The notes under the pieces were generated by a model. That model had not been told where the DNA came from. It was given only the letters and a program-made list of their open reading frames with translations, and ran no database searches. A DNA stretch of 64,000 nt, from the IMG/VR virus record IMGVR_UViG_3300028840_006907, positions 32,001-96,000 of that record. One strand, given 5' to 3'. The position numbers and the translations under genes are program-made. Origin of the DNA: a virus. This document shows positions 13,568-54,683 of this stretch, in pieces; within the stretch, counting starts at the first letter, position 1, and the number at the start of each line of letters is the position of its first letter.

Positions 13568-13722
13568 AATACCTCAATACCTCTCTTTTATTAAATATAA
13601 TTAACTGGAATGATTTGACTTAGATATATTTTATATATAATGGGGTGGTCATCCCCGGATTTACCGGGGCTGTCTCTGGGAGAATCGATACAAATGGCGG
13701 TGATTTAGACCACTCCATTTTA

Positions 13723-38923: not shown

Positions 38924-39682
38924 TTGGAGACATCTGTGAAGTATAGCGTACTTGTACCCTACTATAAACGCCTAGGGCACCTACATAATACCTTTATTTC
39001 CTTTCTACACCATTATTCAGATAGAAATGATTATGAGGTTGTCATAGCAGAAGATTATAAAAATGTCCAGAATAAAAAAGACCATGACGGTCTATCAGAA
39101 ACCATTGAGAAATTCCGTGAAAAAATACCGATAATTCATTTAACTCTTTCTATGGAAACCTGGAATCCAGCTCATGGTTTTAATGAAGCTGCAAAGTGGG
39201 CTTCTGGTGAATATTTCGTTGTAACCAATCCAGAATGTTTCCATCAAGTGAACATACTGGCTGGACTCGATAAAGAATTTGAAGAAGACCCCAATGTCTA
39301 TGTTGTATGTGGTTGTATGAATTATGTCCGTTGTAATTTTTTTATTAAAAACTTTAATGATCTAAATGGAAAATTTCAGAGATGGTACCAACACTCAATA
39401 CATAGAGCAGCCCACTATCATTTCTGTTCAGCTATTTCAAAACAGAATTGGGTAAAAATAGGAGGATTCGATGAAGACTTTGCTATGGGTATAGCCTATG
39501 ATGATGTCGATTTTAAATTAAGCATTCAAAAAGCCAAGATACCCTTTCATATCCGGGATGACCTTCTTACTATACATATTGACCATGGTTCCTTCCCATC
39601 TCCTCCAAATGCTCAGAAATTAGTTAATCGAAATAGAATCACCTATCAAAGAAAATGGGAAGGAAGTAATGAATCTTACTAG
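38924..39682 (+). CDS. putative family-2 (GT-A) glycosyltransferase
   Basis: N-terminal YSVLVPYY and GGFDEDFAMGIAYDDVDF segments resemble GT2 signatures; start codon uncertain (TTG 38924 or GTG 38936). Confidence 0.5.
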   Translation: METSVKYSVLVPYYKRLGHLHNTFISFLHHYSDRNDYEVVIAEDYKNVQNKKDHDGLSETIEKFREKIPIIHLTLSMETWNPAHGFNEAAKWASGEYFVVTNPECFHQVNILAGLDKEFEEDPNVYVVCGCMNYVRCNFFIKNFNDLNGKFQRWYQHSIHRAAHYHFCSAISKQNWVKIGGFDEDFAMGIAYDDVDFKLSIQKAKIPFHIRDDLLTIHIDHGSFPSPPNAQKLVNRNRITYQRKWEGSNESY

Positions 39683-41762
39683 TTATACCGCAGCCGACAG
39701 TATCCCGATAAAATTGATTAAGAACTTTAAATTGTTAAAGTCCATGACAACAAAAGGAGTCATCTTACCAATCCATGTCCAGTTCATACCCACAAATAGA
39801 TGTAACATGAAATGTGGATTTTGTAGCTGTGCTGAAGATGACAGAAAAACAGAAATGTCCCTTAAAAATGCTAAGAAGATCATCAGAAAATTAAAAAAAC
39901 TCGGTACTCAATCCGTAACCATCACCGGAGGAGGAGAACCACTCCTTTATCCTCATCTCCAAGAATTGTTTTCTCTGTTTAAAGATGCCGGGATAAAAAT
40001 CGGTTTTGTTACCAATGGCCTCTTATTAGGTAAATGTACCTATGAAGATGTAACCTGGTGTCGGATTTCTAATTCTGATGAAAGAAAAATGGACATGGAC
40101 TATTATCACACAATAGCTTATGCTGTTGAAGATAACCCAAACGTGGACTGGGCCTTTAGTCATGTCGTTTCTCCAAAACCAAATATCTCCGAAATAAAAC
40201 GGATCATAGAATTTGCCAATCTCCATGATTTTACCCATGTCCGATTAGTAGCTGATCTATTGAATTATAAAGAAGTAGATTTAATGCAGTTAAAAATCAC
40301 TCTTCGAGATGAAAATGTCGATGATGATAAAGTCATCTATCAAAGTAGAAATACCCCGCTCAGAGGCGGAGACTGTTATATATGCTATCTTAAACCCATG
40401 ATAGGGGCTGACTGTAATGTGTACGCTTGTTGTTTAGAGGCTAATGAACCTGTATTAATCCAGAGAAATAACGAAAGGATGTATTTATCTATAAAGGATG
40501 TTGTTCCAGGGGATTATGCTTGTGAATATGGAAAGATTTTAAATGTGTTTCATAAAGAGGGTGAAGAAGGCTTGGAAATAGTTTTGCAAAATAATAGGAC
40601 TATTTATGTTTCGAAAGATCATCTTATGCTTAAATTGACAAACCCTGAAATTAGACATAAGAGAAAGAAGTTATTATCTGACTATGAATTAGATACAATA
40701 GAATCTTCTGAATTAAGAATTGGAGATTTACTTCCGGTCAAATATAAATATGATATTAGTGAAATAAAAGAAGATACTATATCTGAAGAAGAAGCAGAAT
40801 TAATAGGATATTATGTAGCTGAAGGTTGGTCCAATGAACGAACTTGTATAGTTGATAAAAAATATCCTACTAGAACTACCACTATAGGATTTATGCTAGG
40901 GAAAGAGTCAAGAGAATATATAAGAAGATTTGAAGAAATTTGTGATATTTTGAATCTAAATTTTTCTATGACTGAACGTAGAACTGGTATGCAGTATCAG
41001 ATAGGTGCACATAAACCCTACGATGACTTAATTGTACACTGTGGTAATAAAGCAGAATTAAAAAAGATCCCTCCTTTTATTTTAAACGGCTCTGATAAAA
41101 TAAAGTGGAAATTTATTCAAGGCTATTTTGGAGGTGACGGGAATTTTCAAACTCCTTCTAAAAGCTATGATGGTTTTAAAATGAGAATGAGTACTGTCAG
41201 TAGACAACTAGCTAATGATATAATTTATCTCTTTTGTACTTTAAATATTCATGCTTCTATGAGAGTTGAGAGACGTGAAGGAAAAATGATAATAGAAGGA
41301 AGAGAGGTAAATGCTAAAGATCGGTATCATATAAATATAGGGGGAGCCTATAATTTAGAAAAAGCCCCATTCCTAAATGTAATTCAAACAAAAGAAAGAA
41401 GTCCTAAAAGAGCCCTCGGTTTTTTGAAAGATGAGGATAAGGGCATTATGTTTGTACCAGTTAAAGAGATCAGAGAGAAAAAGTTAGGAAAATTAGTAGA
41501 CATTCAAGTGGAAGGTTCAAATAAATTTATATCTTCATTTGGTATAATAGTTCATAATTGTGGCGTCCAGTATGCTCTTAAAAAGCCTTCAAAGAATCTT
41601 CCTAAGAAACTGAGCCTAGGAAGTGCTTTTGATCTTGAGAAGATAATTGAGAACAGTAATAAGCCCCTGGACGGGAGCATGTGTTATCGATGCTATTATA
41701 GTAATTATAACAAGATACTAGGATCCATCCTGGATGATACCGATCATATGGAGTTTGTATGA
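39669..41762 (+). CDS. radical SAM enzyme interrupted by an intein
   Basis: CNMKCGFC (CxxxCxxC) and TGGGEPLL in N-extein; intein blocks described separately. Confidence 0.65.
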   Translation: MNLTSYTAADSIPIKLIKNFKLLKSMTTKGVILPIHVQFIPTNRCNMKCGFCSCAEDDRKTEMSLKNAKKIIRKLKKLGTQSVTITGGGEPLLYPHLQELFSLFKDAGIKIGFVTNGLLLGKCTYEDVTWCRISNSDERKMDMDYYHTIAYAVEDNPNVDWAFSHVVSPKPNISEIKRIIEFANLHDFTHVRLVADLLNYKEVDLMQLKITLRDENVDDDKVIYQSRNTPLRGGDCYICYLKPMIGADCNVYACCLEANEPVLIQRNNERMYLSIKDVVPGDYACEYGKILNVFHKEGEEGLEIVLQNNRTIYVSKDHLMLKLTNPEIRHKRKKLLSDYELDTIESSELRIGDLLPVKYKYDISEIKEDTISEEEAELIGYYVAEGWSNERTCIVDKKYPTRTTTIGFMLGKESREYIRRFEEICDILNLNFSMTERRTGMQYQIGAHKPYDDLIVHCGNKAELKKIPPFILNGSDKIKWKFIQGYFGGDGNFQTPSKSYDGFKMRMSTVSRQLANDIIYLFCTLNIHASMRVERREGKMIIEGREVNAKDRYHINIGGAYNLEKAPFLNVIQTKERSPKRALGFLKDEDKGIMFVPVKEIREKKLGKLVDIQVEGSNKFISSFGIIVHNCGVQYALKKPSKNLPKKLSLGSAFDLEKIIENSNKPLDGSMCYRCYYSNYNKILGSILDDTDHMEFV
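40431..41558 (+). mobile_element. intein with LAGLIDADG-type homing endonuclease domain (boundaries approximate; N-terminal Cys at 40428 or 40431)
   Basis: Starts CLEANEPVLI, ends GIIVHN followed by Cys; internal IGYYVAEGW and IQGYFGGDGNF motifs. Confidence 0.6.
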
Positions 41763-44019: not shown

Positions 44020-47018
44020 AGGGAAACCCCGCTCAGATGCAGGGAAGAAGATTTCATTAAGAAGTTTTAGGAAGAGCCCCGCAGAGGAGGAACCTCGCAA
44101 GATGCGGGGAAAAGGAACTTCAGGCAATTGGCTGGGATTAGCCCCGCGAAGGTGCGGGGAAAACAGTTTCCATGAACTATATTAGGGAGAGCCCCGTTGA
44201 CACGGGGAAAAACCCGTCTTTACTTAGTGAGATCGAGGAAGGAACAGCCCCGTTGATACGGGGATAAAATAATATGACTTTTACGAATCCTCTAGGGACA
44301 GCCCTGCAGAGTGCAGGGAAAAGTAACGTCTGGGAATTGTTTAGGATTAGCCCCGCGAAGGTGCGGGGAAAGCCATAGATTTTATATTGACACAGGAAAA
44401 ACCCCGGTATAGTCCGGGGAAAAGTACGTAATCAAGATGTAAGAGGATTAGACCCGGCGAGTCCGGGAAAAGATTGGCCCAATCACTATTAAGTAGGGTG
44501 GGATAGCCCCGCAGAATGCAGGGAATAGATGCCTCACTTCATACCACTGCGTCAACCCCAGTAGAGTCCGGGGAACATGAGTGTAAATCTCTGTCGTAGG
44601 TTCAACCCCGGAGAGATCCAGGGGAAATGGGTACAACTTTGTGTACAAGGGGTAGCCCCGGAGAAATCCGAGGAAAATGAGTGTAAATCTGTGTTGAGGG
44701 TCCAGCCCCGCTCAGTGCAGGGAATATTAAGGGTCAAAACCGGTTGCCCCTGCGTCAACCCCGGTGAAGTCCGGGGAACATGAGTGTAAATCTCTGTGGT
44801 AGGATCAACCCCGCAGAGTGCAGGGAAAAATTGAACTTTTTAATCAACCCTGTAACAGCCCCGGAGTCAGTTTTGACAAGTCCGGGGGAATATCACTTCG
44901 TAAAGGAGTGGCTGTCAAGGGGGCAACCCCACAGAGATGTGGGGGAAAGTAAGCCAACGTTCCGGCATAGGCATAGCCCCTGAATTTACAGAGGGCAATT
45001 TTTCCAGTGTCCAGAAGAAGATGCAGGGAGAACCCCGGAAAGTCCAGGGGAAAATGTGTCACAGAACAACTCTTTGTGATCTCCAGGGTGAACCTCGCAG
45101 AGGTGCGGGGGAAAAGTGTCAATGAATACCAGTATGAGTCAGCCCCGGTATAGCCCGGGAATAATTACTTCTAGTCTGATAGAAGGTGCAACCCCGGGAA
45201 GTCCGGGGAAATCGGTCATAGCCATCTGGACCAGGAAGAACCCCGGTGAGATCCGGGGAAAAGGACGTTTAAATCCTGACATAGTAGCTAACTGAGGCGT
45301 AGCTCCGGTCGGGTCAGCCCTGCAGAGAGCAGGGAACAAACATAGGTAATAAATCGGCACGTGACAGCCCCGCAGAGAGGCGGGGATATATAGCGTGAGT
45401 TGCAGGGTAAGGTTCAACCCTTGTTTACCAAGGGAAAAATACCGGCAGATAAGAATTTAGGATGACCCCCGGTGAAAGTCCGGGGAAAATAATTAATACG
45501 CAAAACAGCAGGGCCAGTCCCGCGAGATGCAGGGAATGTTCAGCCAGTTTGTGTAATATTTCAGGAGACGGTGGTGCAACCCTGTCAAGGACAGGGATAT
45601 GCAACATCTGTGGCTCTACGAGGATCAGCCCCGGCAAGTCCGGGGAATTATCTTTTTATAAATGCCAAAAATAACAGTTGGGAGGGGCCAATTCCGCTGA
45701 TGCAGAAAGACATTTCATAATTAATATATTTATGGAAGAGCCCCGGTGAAATCCGGGGAAGTCAAGTAATTACAGCTCGCTGACCACTGGGGGTAGCCCC
45801 GGTAAGATCCGGGGAAAAGTTTGTTTTGAAACAAACGCTAGGAACAGCCCCGCTCAGGTGCGGGAGAATCACTGCATATTTGGTTAATGGCCCCCCTGAG
45901 TCAATCCCGCTCAGGTGCGGGGAAAATAAAGAGATAGACTAATTCAATATGCAGGAAGAACCCCGCTATATGCAGGAAAATTTAAAAAGTATGGATATCT
46001 CCTTGAGTCAACCCCGGAGATCCAGGGAAATGTAGGCACTCGTTGTCCTTTGTCGAAGTGTGAAGGGCAAACCTCGTTGATACGAGGAACAAATTTAGTT
46101 TTACTTTTGAATAAAAGTGGTCAAGCCCCGCTCAGGTGCAGGGAATAGATAAGTATACCGACGATAGCCAGGACAGCACCTGTGGTTTAGCCCTGCATGT
46201 GCAGGGAATAGTTGAGTTGAAGATTGAAGAAAAAGATAAAGTAGGGTCAGCTCTGCATGTGCAGAGAATAGCCTTTCTTCAAGCGTTGACTTGGGAGTAG
46301 GTGGGGATCAGCCCTGCACATGCAGGGAATAGAATGGTGAATCAAATTCCATTTTGTCAAAGAACGGCGACAGCCCTGCCAGTGCAGGGAATATGATTTT
46401 AACGATGGTAAAATTGGGAAGGGGTCAGCCCTGCACATGCAGGGAATAGTCGCTAGTTCAAATCCAATCGCCCCGACAGGATCAGCCCTGCATACGCAGG
46501 GAATAGAAAATACTGACGATAAACTAGCGATATGGGATCAGCCCTGCATACGCAGGGATATAGCTTGACGAATGGCCGTTTTAATGCCAGGAGTAACCCC
46601 GCTGCGAGGAATAGTCATTTCAAATATATAGGTAAAGCCCCGCGAAAGAGCGGGGGTATAATATGGCGGATTTTGTTCTATTGGTGGAATCCGGGCCATC
46701 CCCGTAGATTGACACGGGGAGATCTTTTAGAAATCTACCAAGGTGCCTTTCCGGAGTCATCCCCGTATATACGGGGGAGATTTCAATTCAGGGAATTTCG
46801 GTACAAAATTGGTCGGTTTATCCCCGTATACACGGGGAATATTGTTTCAATAGGGCATAGCAGATCTAGGATCGGGGAATCCCCGCAGGGGCGGGGAACA
46901 TCTCGGATTTATTAATCAAATTCAAACGTTTTTCGGGGAATCCCCGCAGGGGCGGGGAACATTGTTTTAAGAGGTGGTAGTTACCTCGTAGGGGAATCCC
47001 CGCAGGGGCGGGGAACAT
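44020..47018 (-). CRISPR. CRISPR array 1, roughly 50 repeat-like units, strongly heterogeneous; leader-proximal repeat ggggaatccccgcaggggcggggaacat (28 nt, 3 identical copies)
   Basis: Periodic hairpin repeats with 23-33 nt spacers; leader-proximal copies at 46874, 46935, 46991; minus-strand reading matches the I-E TTCCCCGC-N4-GCGGGGAT form. Confidence 0.8.
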
Positions 47019-47127: not shown

Positions 47128-49359
47128 CTAGTGGATATACCGAATCCATTCATATCGAATTTTCATCGTTTTATAAGGAGCTTTTTTTCTCCCTGGAAAT
47201 ATGTTTCCTTCAAAAAGGAAAAATTTTTGAACAATTTTAAATTCAGCGTTTGATGGTGTCAAGCTCTGTGGTGCATAATCCGAACGCCAGTAATTATTAC
47301 AATATATAAATTTTTCTTCTCTGTCTTTTTGTATAAGGCCCGGAAACACCACTAAAACTATCTTTTCGTTTTCAATAACAATATCCCCTTGATAAATAGC
47401 TATTTCTAAATCCAGACCATCCTGCTCTATCACACGAGCATATTTCGAGAGTTTCCCATCAATCTTTACTTTAGCTTTAGGGGGAATATCAAAAGTTATC
47501 CATTCACCTTTTATGTCCTTAATGCTTTGAATAGGTTTTTTAACTGGAATTTCTTGAAAGACATGATCTTGGTATTCTGCTTTTTTAAGGATTTCTCCAT
47601 CTTTTTCCATATTAAGCAATAAAGCCTTTTCCATGATGTCTTTAAGTTCATAGAGATCTTTTTCAGTTAAGGGCTCTTTTGTTCCGAATACGATGGAACC
47701 TACATTCTCTAATCGAGCGATTTTATCAAAACCCTGTTTCCGGACAAAGTCTATGGTAATATGTTCTATTTTTCTATTTCTTGAAAGTCTTATGATTCTT
47801 ACAAATTCAGTTTTAATTGTGTCTTTGAAATTATCAAAACTTAAATGATCTTCTACGTAGGGATGATACAAATCCGCTATAAGACTTAATAAAATTTCTA
47901 TGTCTTCAGGTTTATCCTGTTTACGGTTGTAATCATAAGCTTTAATAATTTCTTGTCTCATTTCCATTAATATATCAGGAGCCATTATTTCACTTAAACT
48001 GGTAGATCCTTTTTTGTCCCGATAAAAGGGAGCTGTTGGAAGTAAGGGAATCCTGATAGCAGCACAAAGTTCTGACATTACAATTGAGGTTAAGAACAAA
48101 TTCAATCTGTCTGAATATAATGCCCTGATATTATTACGTTCTTCTTTTTTAATAGGTGGAACATAAATGTATAACCATATTTTATCTTTTTTAGGGTAAC
48201 ATCTGAAAATACGAAACATTATTTGAGAGAAGGTCACCTGACTCTTTCCATAACTTGTATTATGTAAAACAGCAGCAGGAGGCCAATCATACCCTTCATA
48301 GAATATTCTGCAAGATACGGCGACCCAGTATTTTTTATGATTACGTCTCAATAACTCTCTATTTTTTTTCTGAGTTTCCGGTGTGACTAAATCCAGTACT
48401 TTGGACGCAGGATATATTTCGTGAATAGCTTTTAAATATTTTTTAAGGGTTCCTTCCTCTCTGAACCGGTTCCCCATGTCAGGTAATATGACAATGTGTC
48501 TTTGATCTTTGTGCTCTTTCATATATCTAATGATCTGAGTAAGGGGATCTTTCCTATAGTGAGTGAAACGGAAATTGAATTCTTTGATTTTTATGATTGA
48601 GAGATAGTCATTTAATGGGATAACCCATTTTTCAAAATGATGTTTATAAGCATTGGGGACTATTTCTCCTCTGTCTGTGCGGTGGTAAGTAGCTGTATAA
48701 AAATTTACGTTACAAGTAGGTTCATGGATGGTACATACATCTCTGACAAAATCACCCAAATGAGTGGAATCTAGTGGGGTTGATTTTGAATGATGGCATT
48801 CATCTACATGTACAGTTAAATTTCTAAGGGCTTTCTTTTTTTCATAGTTGGTTAATTTTTCCCAGGTCATGACAAACCCTCTATGGGTAGCTGTAGCAAT
48901 AGGGCCTGTTATATGTTTTTCATTGTACGGGTATTTTCGAGGATCTGCTAAAAGGAATTCTTTAAGTCCTTTAATGGATTGAGGGTTTTCACTATTGAAT
49001 TTATGTTCTTTTGGTACTTCCCACAATCTTACCATACCTTTATATTTGATTTTTATTTGTCTATTTTGGGATCTGCAGAAATTTTCACCTATTTCTATTG
49101 TTGGTGCGATAAAGATATGTTTTCGAGTATTTTTAGATATTATGATTTCATCCAGGGATATGCATACTGCTAAAAAAGTTTTGCCGACTCCCCCTGGTGC
49201 ATCAAAGATCATGTATCTGAATTTTTTCCCATATTCTTTTGCATTGCATTGCCAGCCAGAGGGTATCATGATCCCTGATTCAAGTTTTTTATTATAGGTA
49301 CCAAGGTCAACCGGTTCTATTTTAATAGATTGCTGGAAAAGCGGTAATAGCTTTTTCAT
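47128..49359 (-). CDS. cas3: SF2 DExH helicase, Cas3-like, without HD nuclease domain
   Basis: Motif I FDAPGGVGKT, motif II VDECHH, motif III TAT, motif VI-like QIMFRIFR; sits between cas6e and leader 1; GAGAGGA SD. Confidence 0.5.
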   Translation of the reverse strand: MKKLLPLFQQSIKIEPVDLGTYNKKLESGIMIPSGWQCNAKEYGKKFRYMIFDAPGGVGKTFLAVCISLDEIIISKNTRKHIFIAPTIEIGENFCRSQNRQIKIKYKGMVRLWEVPKEHKFNSENPQSIKGLKEFLLADPRKYPYNEKHITGPIATATHRGFVMTWEKLTNYEKKKALRNLTVHVDECHHSKSTPLDSTHLGDFVRDVCTIHEPTCNVNFYTATYHRTDRGEIVPNAYKHHFEKWVIPLNDYLSIIKIKEFNFRFTHYRKDPLTQIIRYMKEHKDQRHIVILPDMGNRFREEGTLKKYLKAIHEIYPASKVLDLVTPETQKKNRELLRRNHKKYWVAVSCRIFYEGYDWPPAAVLHNTSYGKSQVTFSQIMFRIFRCYPKKDKIWLYIYVPPIKKEERNNIRALYSDRLNLFLTSIVMSELCAAIRIPLLPTAPFYRDKKGSTSLSEIMAPDILMEMRQEIIKAYDYNRKQDKPEDIEILLSLIADLYHPYVEDHLSFDNFKDTIKTEFVRIIRLSRNRKIEHITIDFVRKQGFDKIARLENVGSIVFGTKEPLTEKDLYELKDIMEKALLLNMEKDGEILKKAEYQDHVFQEIPVKKPIQSIKDIKGEWITFDIPPKAKVKIDGKLSKYARVIEQDGLDLEIAIYQGDIVIENEKIVLVVFPGLIQKDREEKFIYCNNYWRSDYAPQSLTPSNAEFKIVQKFFLFEGNIFPGRKKAPYKTMKIRYEWIRYIH

Positions 49360-49444: not shown

Positions 49445-49600
49445 TCAATCGTTTTTATCAATCTCCGTGGCTAATACCGACATAAATGACATTCCGGTTC
49501 CTCCTGGTAATTCAATAATAGAAGGTCTTTTGATGTTCTCTTCTAAATTCCTAGAAGCGAGTTGCCAAGAATAGGCTTTTATAGTTTTTGTATTATTCAT
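49445..49600 (-). CDS. small ORF (51 aa) between cas6e and helicase, unknown
   Basis: ATG at 49598-49600 with TGGAGA SD; no motif. Confidence 0.25.
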   Translation of the reverse strand: MNNTKTIKAYSWQLASRNLEENIKRPSIIELPGGTGMSFMSVLATEIDKND

Positions 49601-49628: not shown

Positions 49629-50273
49629 TTAATAAGATTTATACGGTGCAATAAGCATCATACCACATCCGAAACCTTTACTCTTACCAATTCCATTATA
49701 AATAGTATTCACAAAAAGATTTTTATTGACTACCTGAAGGACTCCTCGTAAATCAATACTGAAAAAAGATACAACTTTACCATCTTTTTTTTTGAATTTA
49801 CAGAATTGAAAAGATTGAACGGAATGCTTTTGAATCATATTTTTAAAACCGTAACTTTGGCCACGTTTCTGAAGCCAATTCTTTGAGGATTCGTGAGCAA
49901 TGAAATTCCAATTATAGGGTTCATCAAGAACTTTCATTTCATTTGCCAGATCCGTCATGATTGAAACCTTTTTCCTGGTTTTCAATTTACAAACTTCGGC
50001 ATTGAGTCTGAGATCGTATTGAAGAAATATTCCAGATTTTAAATTATTTAAATCGAATACTTTTGTTTGTGTAGTGTATTCGTCCTCTGGAGGATTTGGT
50101 TTCTTTTTTGATATGATATAAAGTTCACCATTATAGAGATAATAAAGGAAATCTCTTACCCTGTTAGATCTTTGATCACCAAAAAATTCCCAGACTTTTT
50201 GATGAAGCTCATATATACCTTCGGTGGGAGAATATCTTCTCAAGCTGTCACTGTAAATTTTACTCAGAAACAT
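49629..50273 (-). CDS. cas6e: Cas6e (CasE) crRNA endoribonuclease
   Basis: MFLSKIYSD..YELHQKVWEFF..RDFLYY and C-terminal GIGKSKGFGCGMM match recollected E. coli CasE; start moved to ATG 50273. Confidence 0.75.
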   Translation of the reverse strand: MFLSKIYSDSLRRYSPTEGIYELHQKVWEFFGDQRSNRVRDFLYYLYNGELYIISKKKPNPPEDEYTTQTKVFDLNNLKSGIFLQYDLRLNAEVCKLKTRKKVSIMTDLANEMKVLDEPYNWNFIAHESSKNWLQKRGQSYGFKNMIQKHSVQSFQFCKFKKKDGKVVSFFSIDLRGVLQVVNKNLFVNTIYNGIGKSKGFGCGMMLIAPYKSY

Positions 50274-50910
50274 TCGATACCTCCTTCCATCCCATATACT
50301 CAATTCGGGATCGGTATTGTTTGGGACCGGTTACCTGATCAAAACGTTGATTGCTTTTTACTATTTTGATACTGGTATCGGTACCTTCCCAAAATATTCG
50401 GTTCTTTTCACGCCCTTTAAGACTACCATTAAGAAATTCAGGAAGAGAGTACTGTTCAAACGCCTCTGAGAGGCTCTCAGCCTTAACGATCTTAGGATCG
50501 GGTGGTATGTCATAGGAACAGCATTTCCTTCCAAGAAAGGGGGTATAGATGGGCCTATTAAGGGCTTCCATTATTTTCTTCAAAGTATAGGGACAGTTTT
50601 CATTCTCCCATATACATACGGTAAAGATGGCATTGACTAGGTAAAATCTATTCGAGACAATTCCTGGTCCGACTCTGACAATATGGAAATCTTTTAGAAT
50701 AGTACCAGGATTATCTTCCCTACAGGCAAATCCTAGTTGGGCAATCTGAGTTAATTCTTTCACCATTTCTCTTGAGACTCCAAGAGAAGCAGCGATTAAC
50801 CCGCTTACGCCAGATTTGGTAGGGTGATCATCTGTCTTTCGGGTATTACCCTGAAGGGGGAGACCCCAGGCGGATAGAGTACCCGAAAGAAGGAATAATA
50901 AATAATTCAT
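50260..50910 (-). CDS. cas5e: Cas5e (CasD)
   Basis: LSGTLSAWGLP, PTKSGVSGLIAASLG, YTPFLGRKCC match recollected E. coli CasD; AGGAG SD. Confidence 0.75.
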   Translation of the reverse strand: MNYLLFLLSGTLSAWGLPLQGNTRKTDDHPTKSGVSGLIAASLGVSREMVKELTQIAQLGFACREDNPGTILKDFHIVRVGPGIVSNRFYLVNAIFTVCIWENENCPYTLKKIMEALNRPIYTPFLGRKCCSYDIPPDPKIVKAESLSEAFEQYSLPEFLNGSLKGREKNRIFWEGTDTSIKIVKSNQRFDQVTGPKQYRSRIEYMGWKEVSNVSE

Positions 50911-50933: not shown

Positions 50934-52019
50934 TTAGAAATCGATGAATTTAATAAGTTCGTTAAGTGATCCTTCTTTTGTGAGTACATTCAAGATCCTA
51001 TAATCCATTTCATGGTAACATGAATCAAAACTACTTTTCATGTCAAGAAGGGCTTTGACAGCATTTTCCATAACCGCAGGACCTTTAATAGGAGTATGGA
51101 AGGCTTGACAGAGACTTCGTGGGGCAGTTGGAGCTTTTTCGATCATAACGAATGCTGGCCATGTTTGACTATCAGCACATCTGTTTTTATTAGCTGAGGG
51201 GGATGAAGTGGTTAATACTTCGACTATCTGTCGGATGGTTTTGATAGCTAGTTCTTTATTACCTTGAAGATTTTTCGTTAAGAGCTTGGAATTGATTACA
51301 AAGAAACTATAATAGACACCCTGGGTAAAATAGAAATTATCTAGGTGACCTGAACCTTTGGTTCCTTCTAATCCAAGGTTATCGGTAGCTGTAAAATAGT
51401 CGGTTTGGACAGATCCTATATCATTGACAGTAAAAGCGAAATTTGAGGACAGTGAAGCTTCAACATCATATTGGGGCAGTTTTGCAATCATGCGACCGGT
51501 AAGGGCTGTTCTGATTCCTGTATTTTCTTTTAAAAAGAAGAATTCTTGATCAGTGGGTTTATGCCCCTCAATAATTTTGTCAATCAGTTCTTCAATATGT
51601 TGTCTTTCGCTCGGTTGAATTTTAATGGTTTCGGTTTTAAGAAGATCAACCTTTTTTTTCTTTTTCTTTGTATTTTTATCATCTTCTTTTTCAGTGTGCT
51701 TTTTGATATCAACAAAAGTACCAATAAATTTAAATGCGTATTCTTCAGCTTTTTTAGGTGATATTCCACCATCAATTAATCTTTTCTCGACATATTTTCC
51801 AATAAGAGGAGTCTGAAGACCTATATCGATTTCGCACCTTTCAAATAGAGCCTTGTTTAAATCATATTTTCGATTTTGTGAAGACGAATAACCTCGGTTG
51901 GTATCATTAAGTTTCATTGTTTTAGGACGTCCGTCCTGGCCTCGGTTTATGCTAGATACAGCTACACCAGTGAGAAGGTGAATTAACCAGTAGGGGTCTT
52001 TAATAATAGTTTTAGACAT
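50934..52019 (-). CDS. cas7e: Cas7e (CasC) backbone subunit
   Basis: SINRGQDG, SSSQNRK, ALTGRM, FTATDNLGLEGTKGSGHLD match recollected E. coli CasC. Confidence 0.8.
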   Translation of the reverse strand: MSKTIIKDPYWLIHLLTGVAVSSINRGQDGRPKTMKLNDTNRGYSSSQNRKYDLNKALFERCEIDIGLQTPLIGKYVEKRLIDGGISPKKAEEYAFKFIGTFVDIKKHTEKEDDKNTKKKKKKVDLLKTETIKIQPSERQHIEELIDKIIEGHKPTDQEFFFLKENTGIRTALTGRMIAKLPQYDVEASLSSNFAFTVNDIGSVQTDYFTATDNLGLEGTKGSGHLDNFYFTQGVYYSFFVINSKLLTKNLQGNKELAIKTIRQIVEVLTTSSPSANKNRCADSQTWPAFVMIEKAPTAPRSLCQAFHTPIKGPAVMENAVKALLDMKSSFDSCYHEMDYRILNVLTKEGSLNELIKFIDF

Positions 52020-52045
52020 AAATACTCCTTGATATTTATTATTTA

Positions 52046-53989
52046 TTATATGTTATTTGAATATTCTCTTTCCCAGTAGAACTTGACATCTTTGCTCCAG
52101 TGGGCATACCCTTCCATGAAACTGATGATGTTAAATCCTTCCATTCGAGAAACAACATCAGCAAATACTTTCCAGTTTTTTTGTATATCCGTTTTATTGA
52201 AACTCATCATTTCGTCAACATGTCGGCGGTTAATTTTTTGAGAACCCATTTGGGCACCGAAAGATTGAGAAAAATCCAGATCCTTAGCTTTAAAAACAAT
52301 TAGTAGAAGAGGTACGAAAAGAGTCTTCATATCTTCTGATCTTAAAGCAGGGAAATGCATAGACATTTCTAAAATAAAATTCAAATAAAGGTCTTCATGT
52401 TTTAAGATATCGATGTCAAAACATCGGGTAAATACCCTATGTTTTTCTGTATTTCTAATAGTCCCGTACCAGGACAGGAATGGTTTGGTAAAGACCTGGT
52501 TAAAATGAGGTAGGTTTAATTTCCTGTATTCGATATGGGCGAAATTCTCATATTCTAATGGTTGTAGTTTAAGAGGTTTAACAACTTTTTTATTTAAGGT
52601 TTCGATAAATTGTTCCTTAAAATATTTCTGTAAACCTCTCTTTTCAGTACCTACATTTTTTTCAAATGTATCGAAAGCTTTAACTACCATCTTTTCCAAC
52701 CATTTTTCGATATTATGATTCTTGAGAACTTCATAGAAGTATTCTTCAGTTTCTGTCAGAAATTCGTGAAATATTAAAGGTTCGGTTTTATCAGTTCCCC
52801 AGAACTTTCTTATATAATTACAGGTATACCATCCTATAAGATATGAGTGTTCTCTGATATTTAAAGTAAACGCACTATCTTTATAGAGTTCTTCTGGGAT
52901 ATCGAATTTATTTTCCTCCCATCCAAAGAGTTTGGCTTTAGCCATATTATAACCGAAAGTCCATAATCCGAAATCAGTTATTCCAAGATATTCTCGGTTC
53001 TCCATGAAATGACTCACCACTAAAGCTGGAGTTAATTTTTTAGCTGGTAGTAGATAGGTCACAAGATCGAGATGGCTGGTAAAGTCCAGGGGTTTCCGGA
53101 AACCTGTTTCTTTGCCTTTTATAATGGGTGAAAGGATATGACGTGGTTTGACATAACAGTTACCATAATTCCTCGTTTTTATCTTTCTAACCATTAATTT
53201 GGAATGATTGCCACAGATAGTACATGATTCATCAAATTTATCAAAGATAAGATGAATACGTAGAGGCATTTCCCAGAGCGGGTAATAAGGATTCATCTCA
53301 TCCAGGGAAACAGTAGCTTTGTTTTTACTATCAACGGTATCACTAAGCCATGGGAGTGTTACACCTTTTGGATTTCCTCCGAATTCAAACATGGTCTTTT
53401 TAATAATAACATTAGACCATATTGTTTCCCATAACGTGGAACCGGTAATAATAGTGGTAAGAGAACCATTGGCACCGGCTGTTATCGAAGTACGGTATCC
53501 TTGGCCTCCCATAATGGCACTGAGTTGATTAAGATAAAGGGCAATTGTAGCACAGGATTGGCAAAAAGTATGTATCTTTGCTTTTTGGAAGAAATCTTTA
53601 CCAGCTTTAATTGTCGCTGTCCCTGGAGTATCAAAGAGGAGATTACCAACATTTACGATTCTTTCAAGGTCCTGTGGCCGTTTATCCTGTAAAAAACGAG
53701 GACCTTTGCCATCTAGTTCAAAGAGTTTTGGTTTAAGTTTTTCTAGGATGGCTTTTTGGTTTGGTGCTTTTTTGAATAGTTTTTTCCATTCTTTCTTACT
53801 TGTAGGAGCAAGATAAGTGTTGAAAAAACCTATGAGAAGCCGTACACCTACAGCATTGAAATCGGGTCTACCGAAATCGAGAGCTATTATAGGGTTATTA
53901 GGTTTTGAAGTTATTTTGTAGGGTGGAATGTTTTCCCTGGTACCGTCTTTTCGGATGACGGGGATCCAAGGGTCCTTAATTACATTCAT
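52046..53989 (-). CDS. cas8e: Cas8e (Cse1/CasA) large subunit with C-terminal extension, possibly fused Cse2/Cas11
   Basis: N-terminal MNVIKDPWIPV, CQSCATIALYLNQ, ESCTICG match recollected E. coli CasA; 647 aa vs about 500 in CasA; GGAGGT SD. Confidence 0.8.
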   Translation of the reverse strand: MNVIKDPWIPVIRKDGTRENIPPYKITSKPNNPIIALDFGRPDFNAVGVRLLIGFFNTYLAPTSKKEWKKLFKKAPNQKAILEKLKPKLFELDGKGPRFLQDKRPQDLERIVNVGNLLFDTPGTATIKAGKDFFQKAKIHTFCQSCATIALYLNQLSAIMGGQGYRTSITAGANGSLTTIITGSTLWETIWSNVIIKKTMFEFGGNPKGVTLPWLSDTVDSKNKATVSLDEMNPYYPLWEMPLRIHLIFDKFDESCTICGNHSKLMVRKIKTRNYGNCYVKPRHILSPIIKGKETGFRKPLDFTSHLDLVTYLLPAKKLTPALVVSHFMENREYLGITDFGLWTFGYNMAKAKLFGWEENKFDIPEELYKDSAFTLNIREHSYLIGWYTCNYIRKFWGTDKTEPLIFHEFLTETEEYFYEVLKNHNIEKWLEKMVVKAFDTFEKNVGTEKRGLQKYFKEQFIETLNKKVVKPLKLQPLEYENFAHIEYRKLNLPHFNQVFTKPFLSWYGTIRNTEKHRVFTRCFDIDILKHEDLYLNFILEMSMHFPALRSEDMKTLFVPLLLIVFKAKDLDFSQSFGAQMGSQKINRRHVDEMMSFNKTDIQKNWKVFADVVSRMEGFNIISFMEGYAHWSKDVKFYWEREYSNNI

Positions 53990-54240: not shown

Positions 54241-54264
54241 GATTATATCAGAGATGGGCTCTGA

Positions 54265-54586
54265 GACAGCCCCGGTAAAGTCCAGGGAAATAAAAATTAG
54301 TGATAATTCGGGAATCAGCAGGAGGAGAGCATCAGCCCTGCGTATGCGGGGAATAGTGTTATCGTCTTACAGGATGTAAAGCAGAGACAGCCCCGCGTAT
54401 GCGGGGAATAGAAATTAATACATCTCATAAAATCTAGCATCAGCCCCGCGTATGCGGGGAATAGTTATTTATCTATACTTCCTACAACTCCCATAACGCA
54501 TCAGCCCCGCGTATGCGGGGAATAGCTCGTTGGTTTTCCCATTCCACAAAAGTTCAACGCATCAGCCCCGCGTATGCGGGGAATAG
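54265..54586 (-). CRISPR. CRISPR array 2: 6 repeats (distal one degenerate), repeat gcatcagccccgcgtatgcggggaatag, spacers 25-33 nt
   Basis: Repeat copies at about 54265, 54329, 54385, 54437, 54498, 54559; 61-bp period for the three leader-proximal units. Confidence 0.85.
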
Positions 54587-54683
54587 ACTATAATATAATT
54601 AGTTGAAAATCAGAGAGTTACAAAGACCCTAATTTTCTACCAAAAAAAGTACTTGCCGTTTATAAATGTCAAAGAGCTTATCT
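54587..54683 (-). promoter_or_regulatory. CRISPR leader 2 with the conserved core
   Basis: Shares ~55-bp core with 47019..47127. Confidence 0.5.

What the first reader, a model, noticed from the sequence alone, without database searches (positions are those of the whole stretch)
52046..53989. No separate cse2/cas11: Cas8e is about 145 aa longer than E. coli CasA and its tail looks Cse2-like
cas7e starts 26 bp after cas8e ends, leaving no room for a cse2 gene. The C-terminal segment SFGAQMGSQKINRRHVDEMM ... WSKDVKFYWERE loosely parallels the SLGRALANSGRINERR ... WWGKRERQQ region I recall from E. coli Cse2. A fused or internally initiated small subunit would change Cascade stoichiometry.
Basis: inference. 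Interest (0 to 1): 0.6.

Follow-up and report, generated by a model that had tools for sequence, protein, structure and literature searches.

The report
Cas8e fused to its Cse2 partner
In this CRISPR locus the large Cascade subunit (Cas8e) carries the normally separate small subunit (Cse2/Cas11) as a built-in C-terminal domain; this is a conserved natural gene fusion and a modest variation on a well-known system.

Summary
On the minus strand, cas8e (53989..52046, 647 aa) ends 26 nt before cas7e. It is 145 aa longer than E. coli CasA (502 aa), and there is no cse2 gene between them.

The tail, about residues 498-647, is a genuine Cse2/Cas11e domain.
- Curated HMMs (Pfam, NCBIfam, PADLOC) miss it.
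- A profile of the tail matches a profile of true Cse2 proteins over almost their full length (hhalign 97.5%, E 5e-12).

It is a true fusion, not an internally translated Cas11. The gene has no in-frame ATG/GTG/TTG between codons 435 and 535. Relatives show no conserved internal start or Shine-Dalgarno site.

The fusion is conserved in six or seven divergent relatives (27-57% identity). In every relative whose locus was read, cas7e follows directly. The closest shorter Cas8e proteins keep a separate cse2. An unrelated bacterial lineage (P0082) made the same fusion independently, and the literature mentions cas8-cas11 fusions in Cas3-less I-E variants.

The locus has no cas1, cas2 or cas3 within 64 kb, and carries an SF2 helicase. 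The stoichiometry consequence, one tethered Cse2 per complex, is inferred and not shown.

The parts
52046..53989 (-). cas8e-cas11e fusion gene (647 aa plus stop), preceded by the SD GGAGGT
   Evidence: ORF and translation. Cse1 HMM hits. SD. AF2 model with pLDDT 92.
52895..53989 (-). Cas8e N-terminal globular domain, about aa 1-365, including a near-invariant 4-Cys motif (C143, C146, C256, C259)
   Evidence: Pfam PF09481 over aa 2-375. Foldseek to E. coli, T. thermophilus and T. fusca Cse1. Conserved columns.
52580..52894 (-). Cas8e C-terminal four-helix bundle, about aa 366-470 (helices 372-397, 404-424, 427-446, 451-470)
   Evidence: AF2 secondary structure. The alignment to full-length Cse1 chains spans about 500 columns. 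Shorter Cas8e relatives end just after this region.
52499..52579 (-). Linker, about aa 471-497. It has the lowest model confidence, and the motif HIEYRKLNLPHF is conserved among close relatives.
   Evidence: pLDDT 64-71 in this block. Alignments.
52049..52498 (-). Cse2/Cas11e-like domain, about aa 498-647
52020..52045 (-). 26-nt cas8e-cas7e spacer holding the cas7e SD (AAGGAG); there is no room for a gene
   Evidence: Sequence. ORF list.
50934..52019 (-). cas7e (361 aa)
   Evidence: PF09344 E 1e-52, TIGR01869 and PADLOC Cas7e.
50260..50910 (-). cas5e (216 aa, with no extra domain)
   Evidence: TIGR01868 E 2e-35 and PF09704.
49629..50303 (-). cas6e (224 aa from TTG; the gene called in the public record starts at 50273, giving 214 aa)
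   Evidence: TIGR01907 E 4e-34 and PF08798. Called genes.
47128..49359 (-). SF2 helicase-like protein (743 aa) in the position where cas3 would be expected; no HD nuclease domain was detected
   Evidence: ResIII/DEAD matches over the N-terminal part only, and cas3_core only at E 0.02. phrog_16 DNA helicase. A 745-aa counterpart sits in relative L007.
54264..54587 (-). Short CRISPR array upstream of cas8e. Read on the minus strand the repeat is CTATTCCCCGCATACGCGGGGCTGATGC; periods are 53-66 bp.
   Evidence: Orientation was inferred by comparison with the arrays of relatives.
44070..47018 (-). Long region of I-E-like hairpin repeats with very heterogeneous repeat sequences, downstream of the helicase gene
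   Evidence: GC is 0.50 here against about 0.33 in the flanks.

Best explanation
The gene encodes one polypeptide in which a complete, divergent Cse2/Cas11e small-subunit domain (about aa 498-647) is joined by a linker of about 27 residues to the end of a complete Cas8e (N-terminal domain plus four-helix bundle). The likely origin is loss of the stop and frame boundary between the overlapping, translationally coupled cse1 and cse2 genes of an ordinary type I-E operon. In the effector complex, Cas6e would cap the crRNA 3' hairpin, Cas5e the 5' handle, and Cas7e would form the backbone. Cas8e would sit at the PAM end, and its own tail would supply the 'belly' subunit that stabilises the R-loop, in cis. 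That fixes Cas8e and Cse2 at 1:1 instead of 1:2. Shown here: the domain identity, the absence of a separate gene in the window, the absence of an internal start, and conservation of the fusion. Inferred: the assembly, the single-Cse2 stoichiometry, and the idea that the complex works without Cas3, either by binding or silencing or together with the neighbouring SF2 helicase.
Against: Pfam PF09485, NCBIfam and PADLOC Cse2/Cas11 models do not recognise the tail, and HMMER against PDB sequences finds nothing. Homology therefore rests on profile-profile comparison and on a predicted structure. There are no protein-level data, so a separately made or cleaved small subunit cannot be excluded experimentally. 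ATG434 is conserved in the four closest relatives, although it lies inside helix 3 of the four-helix bundle and has no good SD. Relatives with the same fusion have ordinary arrays of 61-bp period, implying 32-nt spacers. In E. coli such spacers go with two Cse2 copies, so a one-Cse2 complex would have an unfilled position. The tail is less basic than stand-alone Cse2 (pI 8.0 here and 5.5-5.8 in two relatives, against 8.1-9.8). Only 64 kb of a contig of at least 389 kb could be searched for another cse2.
Confidence: 0.8

Rival explanations
1. The small subunit is made separately from an internal in-frame start inside cas8e. This is established for Cas11 of types I-B, I-C and I-D, and would allow two or more free Cas11 copies per Cascade.
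For: This is the known solution in subtypes that lack a cas11 gene (my knowledge of McBride et al. 2020; Cas11b example PMC11899642, listed). ATG434 is conserved in the four closest relatives.
Against: There is no ATG/GTG/TTG at all between codons 435 and 535, so no start lies at or near the domain boundary at about aa 498. ATG434 sits inside the four-helix bundle, lacks an SD comparable to the operon's real starts, and is absent in P0005 and P0008. Starts seen in individual relatives (M505, M513, M516) are not conserved in position and lack SDs.
Confidence: 0.07
2. The fusion protein is cleaved in the linker after translation, releasing a free Cse2 that can load in more than one copy.
For: The linker (aa 471-497) has the lowest confidence in the model. 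Relatives use 32-nt spacers, which in E. coli go with two Cse2 copies.
Against: No protease or self-cleavage motif was identified. Cleavage would still give only one Cse2 per Cas8e made. The linker motif HIEYRKLNLPHF is conserved among close relatives, which suggests a structural contact and not a disposable tether.
Confidence: 0.05
3. The tail is a decaying remnant of Cse2 with no small-subunit role. The complex works without Cas11 function, which is possible in I-E systems for some activities.
For: The tail diverges faster than the rest of the protein: 13-46% identity against 27-57% for the full length. Its basic character is lost in some relatives. Published work reports that Cas11 is dispensable for some I-E activities (title of PMC12235044; Cas5-HNH system in PMC10910872).
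Against: The full-length Cse2 fold is predicted with pLDDT above 90. The domain is kept intact, without stops or truncation, across relatives down to 27% identity. Signature positions are retained: the SW(W/Y) helix, SF.xQ, and the C-terminal W...W..(Y).
Confidence: 0.07
4. The fusion is an assembly or sequencing artefact: a frameshift error joined two genes.
For: Adjacent cse1 and cse2 genes overlap, so a single indel could join them.
Against: The identical protein occurs on contigs from independent sources (JGI, Logan, ENA, NCBI). Six divergent relatives from other samples have the same continuous reading frame.
Confidence: 0.01

Closest known systems
Canonical type I-E Cascade (E. coli CasA-CasB-CasC-CasD-CasE; T. 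thermophilus, T. fusca)
   Same: It has Cas8e, Cas7e, Cas5e and Cas6e homologues in the same gene order. The Cas8e fold, including the C-terminal four-helix bundle, is the same. The tail has the Cse2 fold. The repeats are I-E-like hairpin repeats.
   Different: Cse2 is a domain of Cas8e here and not a separate gene. No cas3, cas1 or cas2 lies in the 64-kb window; an SF2 helicase without a detected HD domain follows cas6e. Curated Cse2 HMMs do not recognise the domain.
Cas8e-Cse2 fusions in bacterial I-E loci (P0082, P0111, P0120; Pfam PF09481+PF09485) and the cas8-cas11 fusions noted in Cas5-HNH I-E variants (Altae-Tran et al. 2023, PMC10910872)
   Same: The architecture is the same: Cse1 followed by Cse2 in one ORF, then cas7e-cas5e-cas6e, with no cas3 next to it.
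   Different: The origin is independent. P0082's closest relatives, at 81% identity, are unfused, and its Cse2 part is still recognised by Pfam. The window's clade is an old, diverged fusion. Cas5e here has no HNH insertion: it is 216 aa and matches Cas5e over its full length.
Cas8b / Cas8c / Cas10d genes with an embedded Cas11 (types I-B, I-C, I-D)
   Same: The large-subunit gene carries the small-subunit sequence at its 3' end and there is no separate cas11 gene, as predicted by Makarova et al. 2011 (PMC3150331).
   Different: In those systems Cas11 is translated independently from an internal start (my knowledge of McBride et al. 2020; PMC11899642). Here no internal start is available at the domain boundary.
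Huge-phage type I-C variant lacking Cas1/Cas2, with a helicase in place of Cas3 (Al-Shayeb et al. 2020, PMC7162821)
   Same: It is a type I system without an adaptation module, with an unidentified helicase where Cas3 should be, on a very large AT-rich contig made mostly of ORFans.
   Different: The subtype differs: I-E proteins with Cas6e here. Phage identity of this contig is not shown: no hallmark phage gene was found in the window, and the IMG/VR scan found only an unrelated I-E locus.

Membership tests
Cse2 / Cas11e small subunit (Pfam PF09485) | Significant match to the curated family HMMs | tested here: not met
   No PF09485, NCBIfam or PADLOC Cse2 hit for the whole protein, the last 160 aa, or the six tail segments, even at E up to 10.
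Cse2 / Cas11e small subunit (Pfam PF09485) | Homology to bona fide Cse2 over the whole domain | tested here: met
   hhalign of tail profile A3 against profile A6 (ten PF09485 proteins, including those encoded next to the nearest unfused Cas8e): 97.5%, E 5.3e-12, 148 columns. A single E. coli CasB sequence alone gave no signal.
Cse2 / Cas11e small subunit (Pfam PF09485) | Cse2 all-alpha fold | tested here: met
Cse2 / Cas11e small subunit (Pfam PF09485) | Encoded between cas8e and cas7e | tested here: met
   The domain occupies exactly that position, as the 3' end of cas8e, 26 nt before cas7e.
Cse2 / Cas11e small subunit (Pfam PF09485) | Separate polypeptide present in two copies per Cascade | not testable with these tools
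   The sequence argues for a fused single copy. Copy number needs protein biochemistry.
Type I-E CRISPR-Cas | Signature cas8e (cse1) together with cas7e, cas5e and cas6e | tested here: met
Type I-E CRISPR-Cas | Separate cse2 gene | tested here: not met
   None between cas8e and cas7e, and none elsewhere in the window.
Type I-E CRISPR-Cas | Cas3 helicase-nuclease with an HD domain | tested here: not met
   No Cas3_HD in the genes within 10 kb either side. tblastn with a relative's Cas3 finds nothing in the window. The 743-aa helicase matches cas3_core only at E 0.02. The rest of the contig was not available.
Type I-E CRISPR-Cas | cas1e-cas2e adaptation genes | tested here: not met
   No hit in the window by tblastn or in the precomputed Pfam annotations of the locus.
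Type I-E CRISPR-Cas | Hairpin repeat of about 29 nt with 32-nt spacers (61-bp period) | tested here: inconclusive
   Relatives L006 and L007 have clean arrays of 61-bp period. In the window, periods scatter around 50, 56 and 61 bp and the repeat sequences are heterogeneous.
Cas8 genes with internally translated Cas11 (I-B/I-C/I-D mode) | Conserved in-frame start codon with a ribosome-binding site at the start of the Cas11 part | tested here: not met
   No ATG/GTG/TTG between codons 435 and 535, and no conserved start or SD in five related genes.
Cas5-HNH type I-E variant (Altae-Tran 2023) | HNH nuclease domain inserted in Cas5 | tested here: not met
   Cas5e is 216 aa, matches TIGR01868 end to end, and shows no further Pfam domain.

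The most novel reading that the evidence does not exclude
This clade may be a streamlined, Cas3-less and adaptation-less type I-E derivative of a huge phage or a similar giant element. Its Cascade would be built from four proteins, with an obligatorily tethered single Cas11 domain. It would act through a dedicated SF2 helicase or by simple binding, in a type IV-like, nuclease-free way. In this genome it would be loaded from arrays whose repeat periods step by about 6 nt (about 50, 56 and 61 bp). One locus would then produce Cascades of different backbone lengths.
Probability: 0.2. Interest if true: 0.65.

Novelty: new variant of a known kind. Interest (0 to 1): 0.4.

Why it matters
The result shows that the type I-E small subunit can be permanently fused to the large subunit and kept that way over long evolutionary distances. 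This contrasts with types I-B, I-C and I-D, where the embedded Cas11 is translated separately so that it can be present in several copies. If the complex really carries one tethered Cse2 with 32-nt spacers, it bears on how many small subunits Cascade needs to lock an R-loop. It would also offer a four-gene I-E effector for engineering. A practical point follows for annotation: pipelines that rely on HMMs will score such loci as lacking cas11.

Tried and rejected
**Searches on the tail that found nothing**
- HMM searches of the tail against Pfam, NCBIfam and PADLOC found no Cse2.
- phmmer and hmmsearch of the protein and of the tail profile against PDB sequences gave only noise.
- hhalign of the tail profile against the single E. 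coli CasB sequence was not significant. Homology appeared only with a profile of Cse2 proteins taken from the nearest unfused relatives.

**Hypothesis that one fused Cse2 is co-adapted to short spacers**
- E. coli Cascade with spacers 12 nt shorter contains one Cse2 and four Cas7 (PMC5159557).
- Many repeat periods in the window are about 50 bp.
- This idea is weakened because relatives with the same fusion (L006, L007) have regular arrays of 61-bp period.

**Array orientation**
- I first read the arrays on the plus strand.
- Comparison with the relatives' repeats (CTATTTCCCGCG..GGGGATAAACC) indicates the minus strand, the same as the cas genes.

**Phage identity of the element**
- PHROGs and Pfam scans of the larger ORFs gave no hallmark phage gene.
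- There are no tRNAs in the window.
- The INPHARED protein search found only Salmonella-labelled records (H1 is a S. enterica contig annotated Cse1 family).
- The IMG/VR scan returned only an unrelated I-E locus.

Full report
**1. Observation**

The interval 52046-53989 is a single ORF on the minus strand. It starts at ATG 53989, encodes 647 aa, and has its stop codon at 52046-52048. Pfam (PF09481, E 5e-48), NCBIfam (TIGR02547) and PADLOC (Cas8e) identify it as Cse1/Cas8e. All of these matches end near residue 375-380 and leave about 270 residues unassigned.

The downstream genes on the same strand are:
- cas7e, 52019..50934
- cas5e, 50910..50260
- cas6e, 50303/50273..49629
- a 743-aa SF2 helicase-like gene, 49359..47128

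The cas8e-cas7e gap is 26 nt and holds the cas7e Shine-Dalgarno site AAGGAG. E. coli K-12 casA encodes 502 aa, so the excess is 145 aa.

**2. What the tail is**

HMMER-level searches did not recognise the tail. There was no Cse2 hit in Pfam, NCBIfam or PADLOC, and no hit to PDB sequences.

A database search gave 99 Cas8e relatives. Five of them (P0002-P0005 and P0008, 647-664 aa, 27-57% identity) share the extension. Most of the others are 490-590 aa and end at about query residue 500. One distant hit, P0082 (674 aa), carries both the Pfam Cse1 and the Pfam Cse2 domain. Its Cse2 part aligns with the window's tail.

I built a profile of the six tails (A3). I also built a profile of ten bona fide Cse2 proteins (A6). 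That set includes the cse2 genes that lie next to the two nearest unfused Cas8e relatives. Profile-profile comparison gave 97.5% probability and E 5.3e-12 over 148 aligned columns, covering Cse2 positions 12-171 of 175. Shared landmarks include the N-terminal LxxWW/SWY helix, the (R)C motif, SF(A/G)xQM(A/G), and the C-terminal W...W..(E)Y.

AlphaFold2 models are confident. The full protein has pLDDT 92.1 and pTM 0.80. The tail alone has pLDDT 90.5. The full model resolves into:
- an N-terminal domain, about aa 1-365
- a four-helix bundle, aa 372-470
- a lower-confidence linker, aa 471-497, with pLDDT 64-71
- a helical C-terminal domain, aa 498-646

**3. Fusion or internal start**

The real starts in this operon have strong SDs: GGAGGT for cas8e, AAGGAG for cas7e, AGGAG for cas5e and GAGGAA for the helicase. 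Inside cas8e, only two in-frame starts have an SD-like match of 4 nt or more. They are at codons 329 and 581, and neither would give a Cse2-sized product.

Between codons 435 and 535 there is no ATG, GTG or TTG at all. The only candidate upstream is ATG434. It lies within helix 3 of the four-helix bundle, has no comparable SD, and is missing in P0005 and P0008. Starts in individual relatives (M505 in L004, M513 in L006, M516 in L007) are not conserved in position and lack SDs.

A phmmer search of 1.84 billion representative proteins with the tail alone returned only C-terminal matches in proteins of about 650-660 aa. No stand-alone small protein was found. I conclude that this is a translational fusion. 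It is not the internal-initiation arrangement known from types I-B, I-C and I-D.

**4. Distribution and origin**

In every long relative whose locus was read (P0003's contig holds only the gene and was not read), cas8e is followed directly by cas7e-cas5e-cas6e. The nearest shorter relatives, P0012 and P0006, have a separate cse2 that overlaps the end of cse1 by 4 nt and 1 nt respectively. P0012 also has cas3, cas1 and cas2. E. coli casA and casB overlap by 8 nt. Overlapping, coupled genes of this kind can be joined by a small indel.

The P0082 group (P0082, P0111, P0120) is a second fusion. Its closest relatives, at 81% identity, are unfused 492-495 aa proteins. Fusion has therefore happened at least twice. 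The event in the window's clade is old: it is retained down to 27% identity. An assembly artefact is excluded by these independent, divergent copies and by the identical protein occurring on contigs from several sources.

**5. Context**

The protein is found on contigs of 389-470 kb. The window has GC of about 0.33 and no tRNAs. It consists mostly of ORFs without family assignment. A huge phage or another giant extrachromosomal element is plausible. This is not shown, because no hallmark phage gene was found and the IMG/VR scan returned only an unrelated I-E locus.

No cas1, cas2 or cas3 is detectable in the window. The 743-aa protein has only an SF2 helicase core and no detected HD domain. 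A 745-aa counterpart follows cas6e in relative L007, but none does in L004 or L005. This resembles the huge-phage type I-C variant described as lacking Cas1/Cas2 with a helicase instead of Cas3 (PMC7162821).

Arrays flank the operon. A short one lies at 54264-54587. A long region at 44070-47018 has unusually heterogeneous hairpin repeats.

**6. Mechanism and stoichiometry (inference)**

Canonical E. coli Cascade has two Cse2 copies per Cas8e. A fusion fixes the ratio at 1:1. E. coli Cascade assembled on spacers 12 nt shorter contains one Cse2 and four Cas7 (PMC5159557). In the window, repeat periods cluster at 49-51 bp (13 cases), 53-57 bp (12 cases) and 60-62 bp (5 cases). This suggested that the fusion might be co-adapted to short spacers.

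Relatives with the same fusion, however, have regular arrays of 61-bp period, meaning 29-nt repeats and 32-nt spacers. The fusion is therefore not tied to short spacers. A six-Cas7 complex would then have only one Cse2 domain plus the Cas8e four-helix bundle along its belly. Published work indicates that I-E complexes tolerate loss of Cas11 for some activities (PMC10910872; title of PMC12235044).

The fused domains are also less uniformly basic than stand-alone Cse2: pI 5.5-9.6 against 8.1-9.8. This is compatible with tethering relaxing the need for electrostatic recruitment. None of this is demonstrated.

**7. Comparison and novelty**

Large-small subunit fusion was predicted long ago for subtypes I-B, I-C, I-D and I-F (PMC3150331; PMC5965380). 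A cas8-cas11 fusion in Cas3-less I-E-related (Cas5-HNH) systems is mentioned in passing in PMC10910872. My literature searches found no description of this clade, nor of an obligate Cas8e-Cse2 fusion as such.

I rate it a new variant of a known kind. The components and the logic are familiar. The specific points are that the fusion is conserved, ancient and invisible to HMMs, that it sits in an I-E derivative lacking adaptation genes and Cas3, and that it lacks the internal start used by other subtypes. Interest is moderate.

Noticed in passing
window 44070-47018 (minus strand): About 3 kb of I-E-like hairpin repeats sit in a region with GC 0.50 against a 0.33 background. The repeat sequences differ strongly from unit to unit (stems CCCCGC, CCCCGG, CCCTGC, CCCCGT, TCCCCG). 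Repeat periods cluster near 50, 56 and 61 bp, that is in steps of about 6 nt, the Cas7 repeat length. Some repeat-spacer blocks are duplicated, for example 44544-44628 and 44747-44831 at 85% identity.
   Followed up: partly
window 54264-54587 (minus strand): A second, cleaner mini-array of 5-6 repeats lies immediately upstream of cas8e. Read on the minus strand the repeat is CTATTCCCCGCATACGCGGGGCTGATGC; periods are 53-66 bp.
   Followed up: partly
window 47128-49359 (minus strand): A 743-aa SF2 helicase-like protein occupies the place of cas3. Only the N-terminal part matches helicase families (best Pfam match residues 45-225; phrog_16 residues 36-397). No HD nuclease was detected, and the C-terminal half has no assignment. 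A 745-aa counterpart follows cas6e in relative L007 but is absent in L004/L005.
   Followed up: partly
window 49445-49600 (minus strand): A small 51-aa gene is called between cas6e and the helicase in the public records of this contig (L001, L002). It has no family hit, and no equivalent gene is called in relative L007.
   Followed up: no
window 13651-13676: A solitary repeat-like hairpin (GAGACAGCCCCGGTAAATCCGGGGAT, nhmmer E 0.013) lies about 30 kb from the arrays and in the opposite orientation to them.
   Followed up: no
window 53989-52895 (Cas8e residues C143, C146, C256, C259): Four cysteines in two CxxC pairs are nearly invariant among the closer Cas8e relatives, which suggests a zinc site. 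They are absent in P0082.
   Followed up: no
window 39669-41762 (plus strand): A radical-SAM protein is interrupted by an intein with a LAGLIDADG homing-endonuclease domain. A similar intein-bearing radical-SAM gene sits near the cas locus of relative L004.
   Followed up: no
window ~20000: GC skew switches from negative to strongly positive at about 20 kb, together with a switch of the predominant coding strand.
   Followed up: no
L003 8001-12487: An independent bacterial Cse1-Cse2 fusion (P0082, recognisable by Pfam) is followed by cas7e-cas5e-cas6e without an adjacent cas3, cas1 or cas2. It is flanked by IS605/TnpB-type genes. Its nearest relatives, at 81% identity, are unfused.
   Followed up: partly
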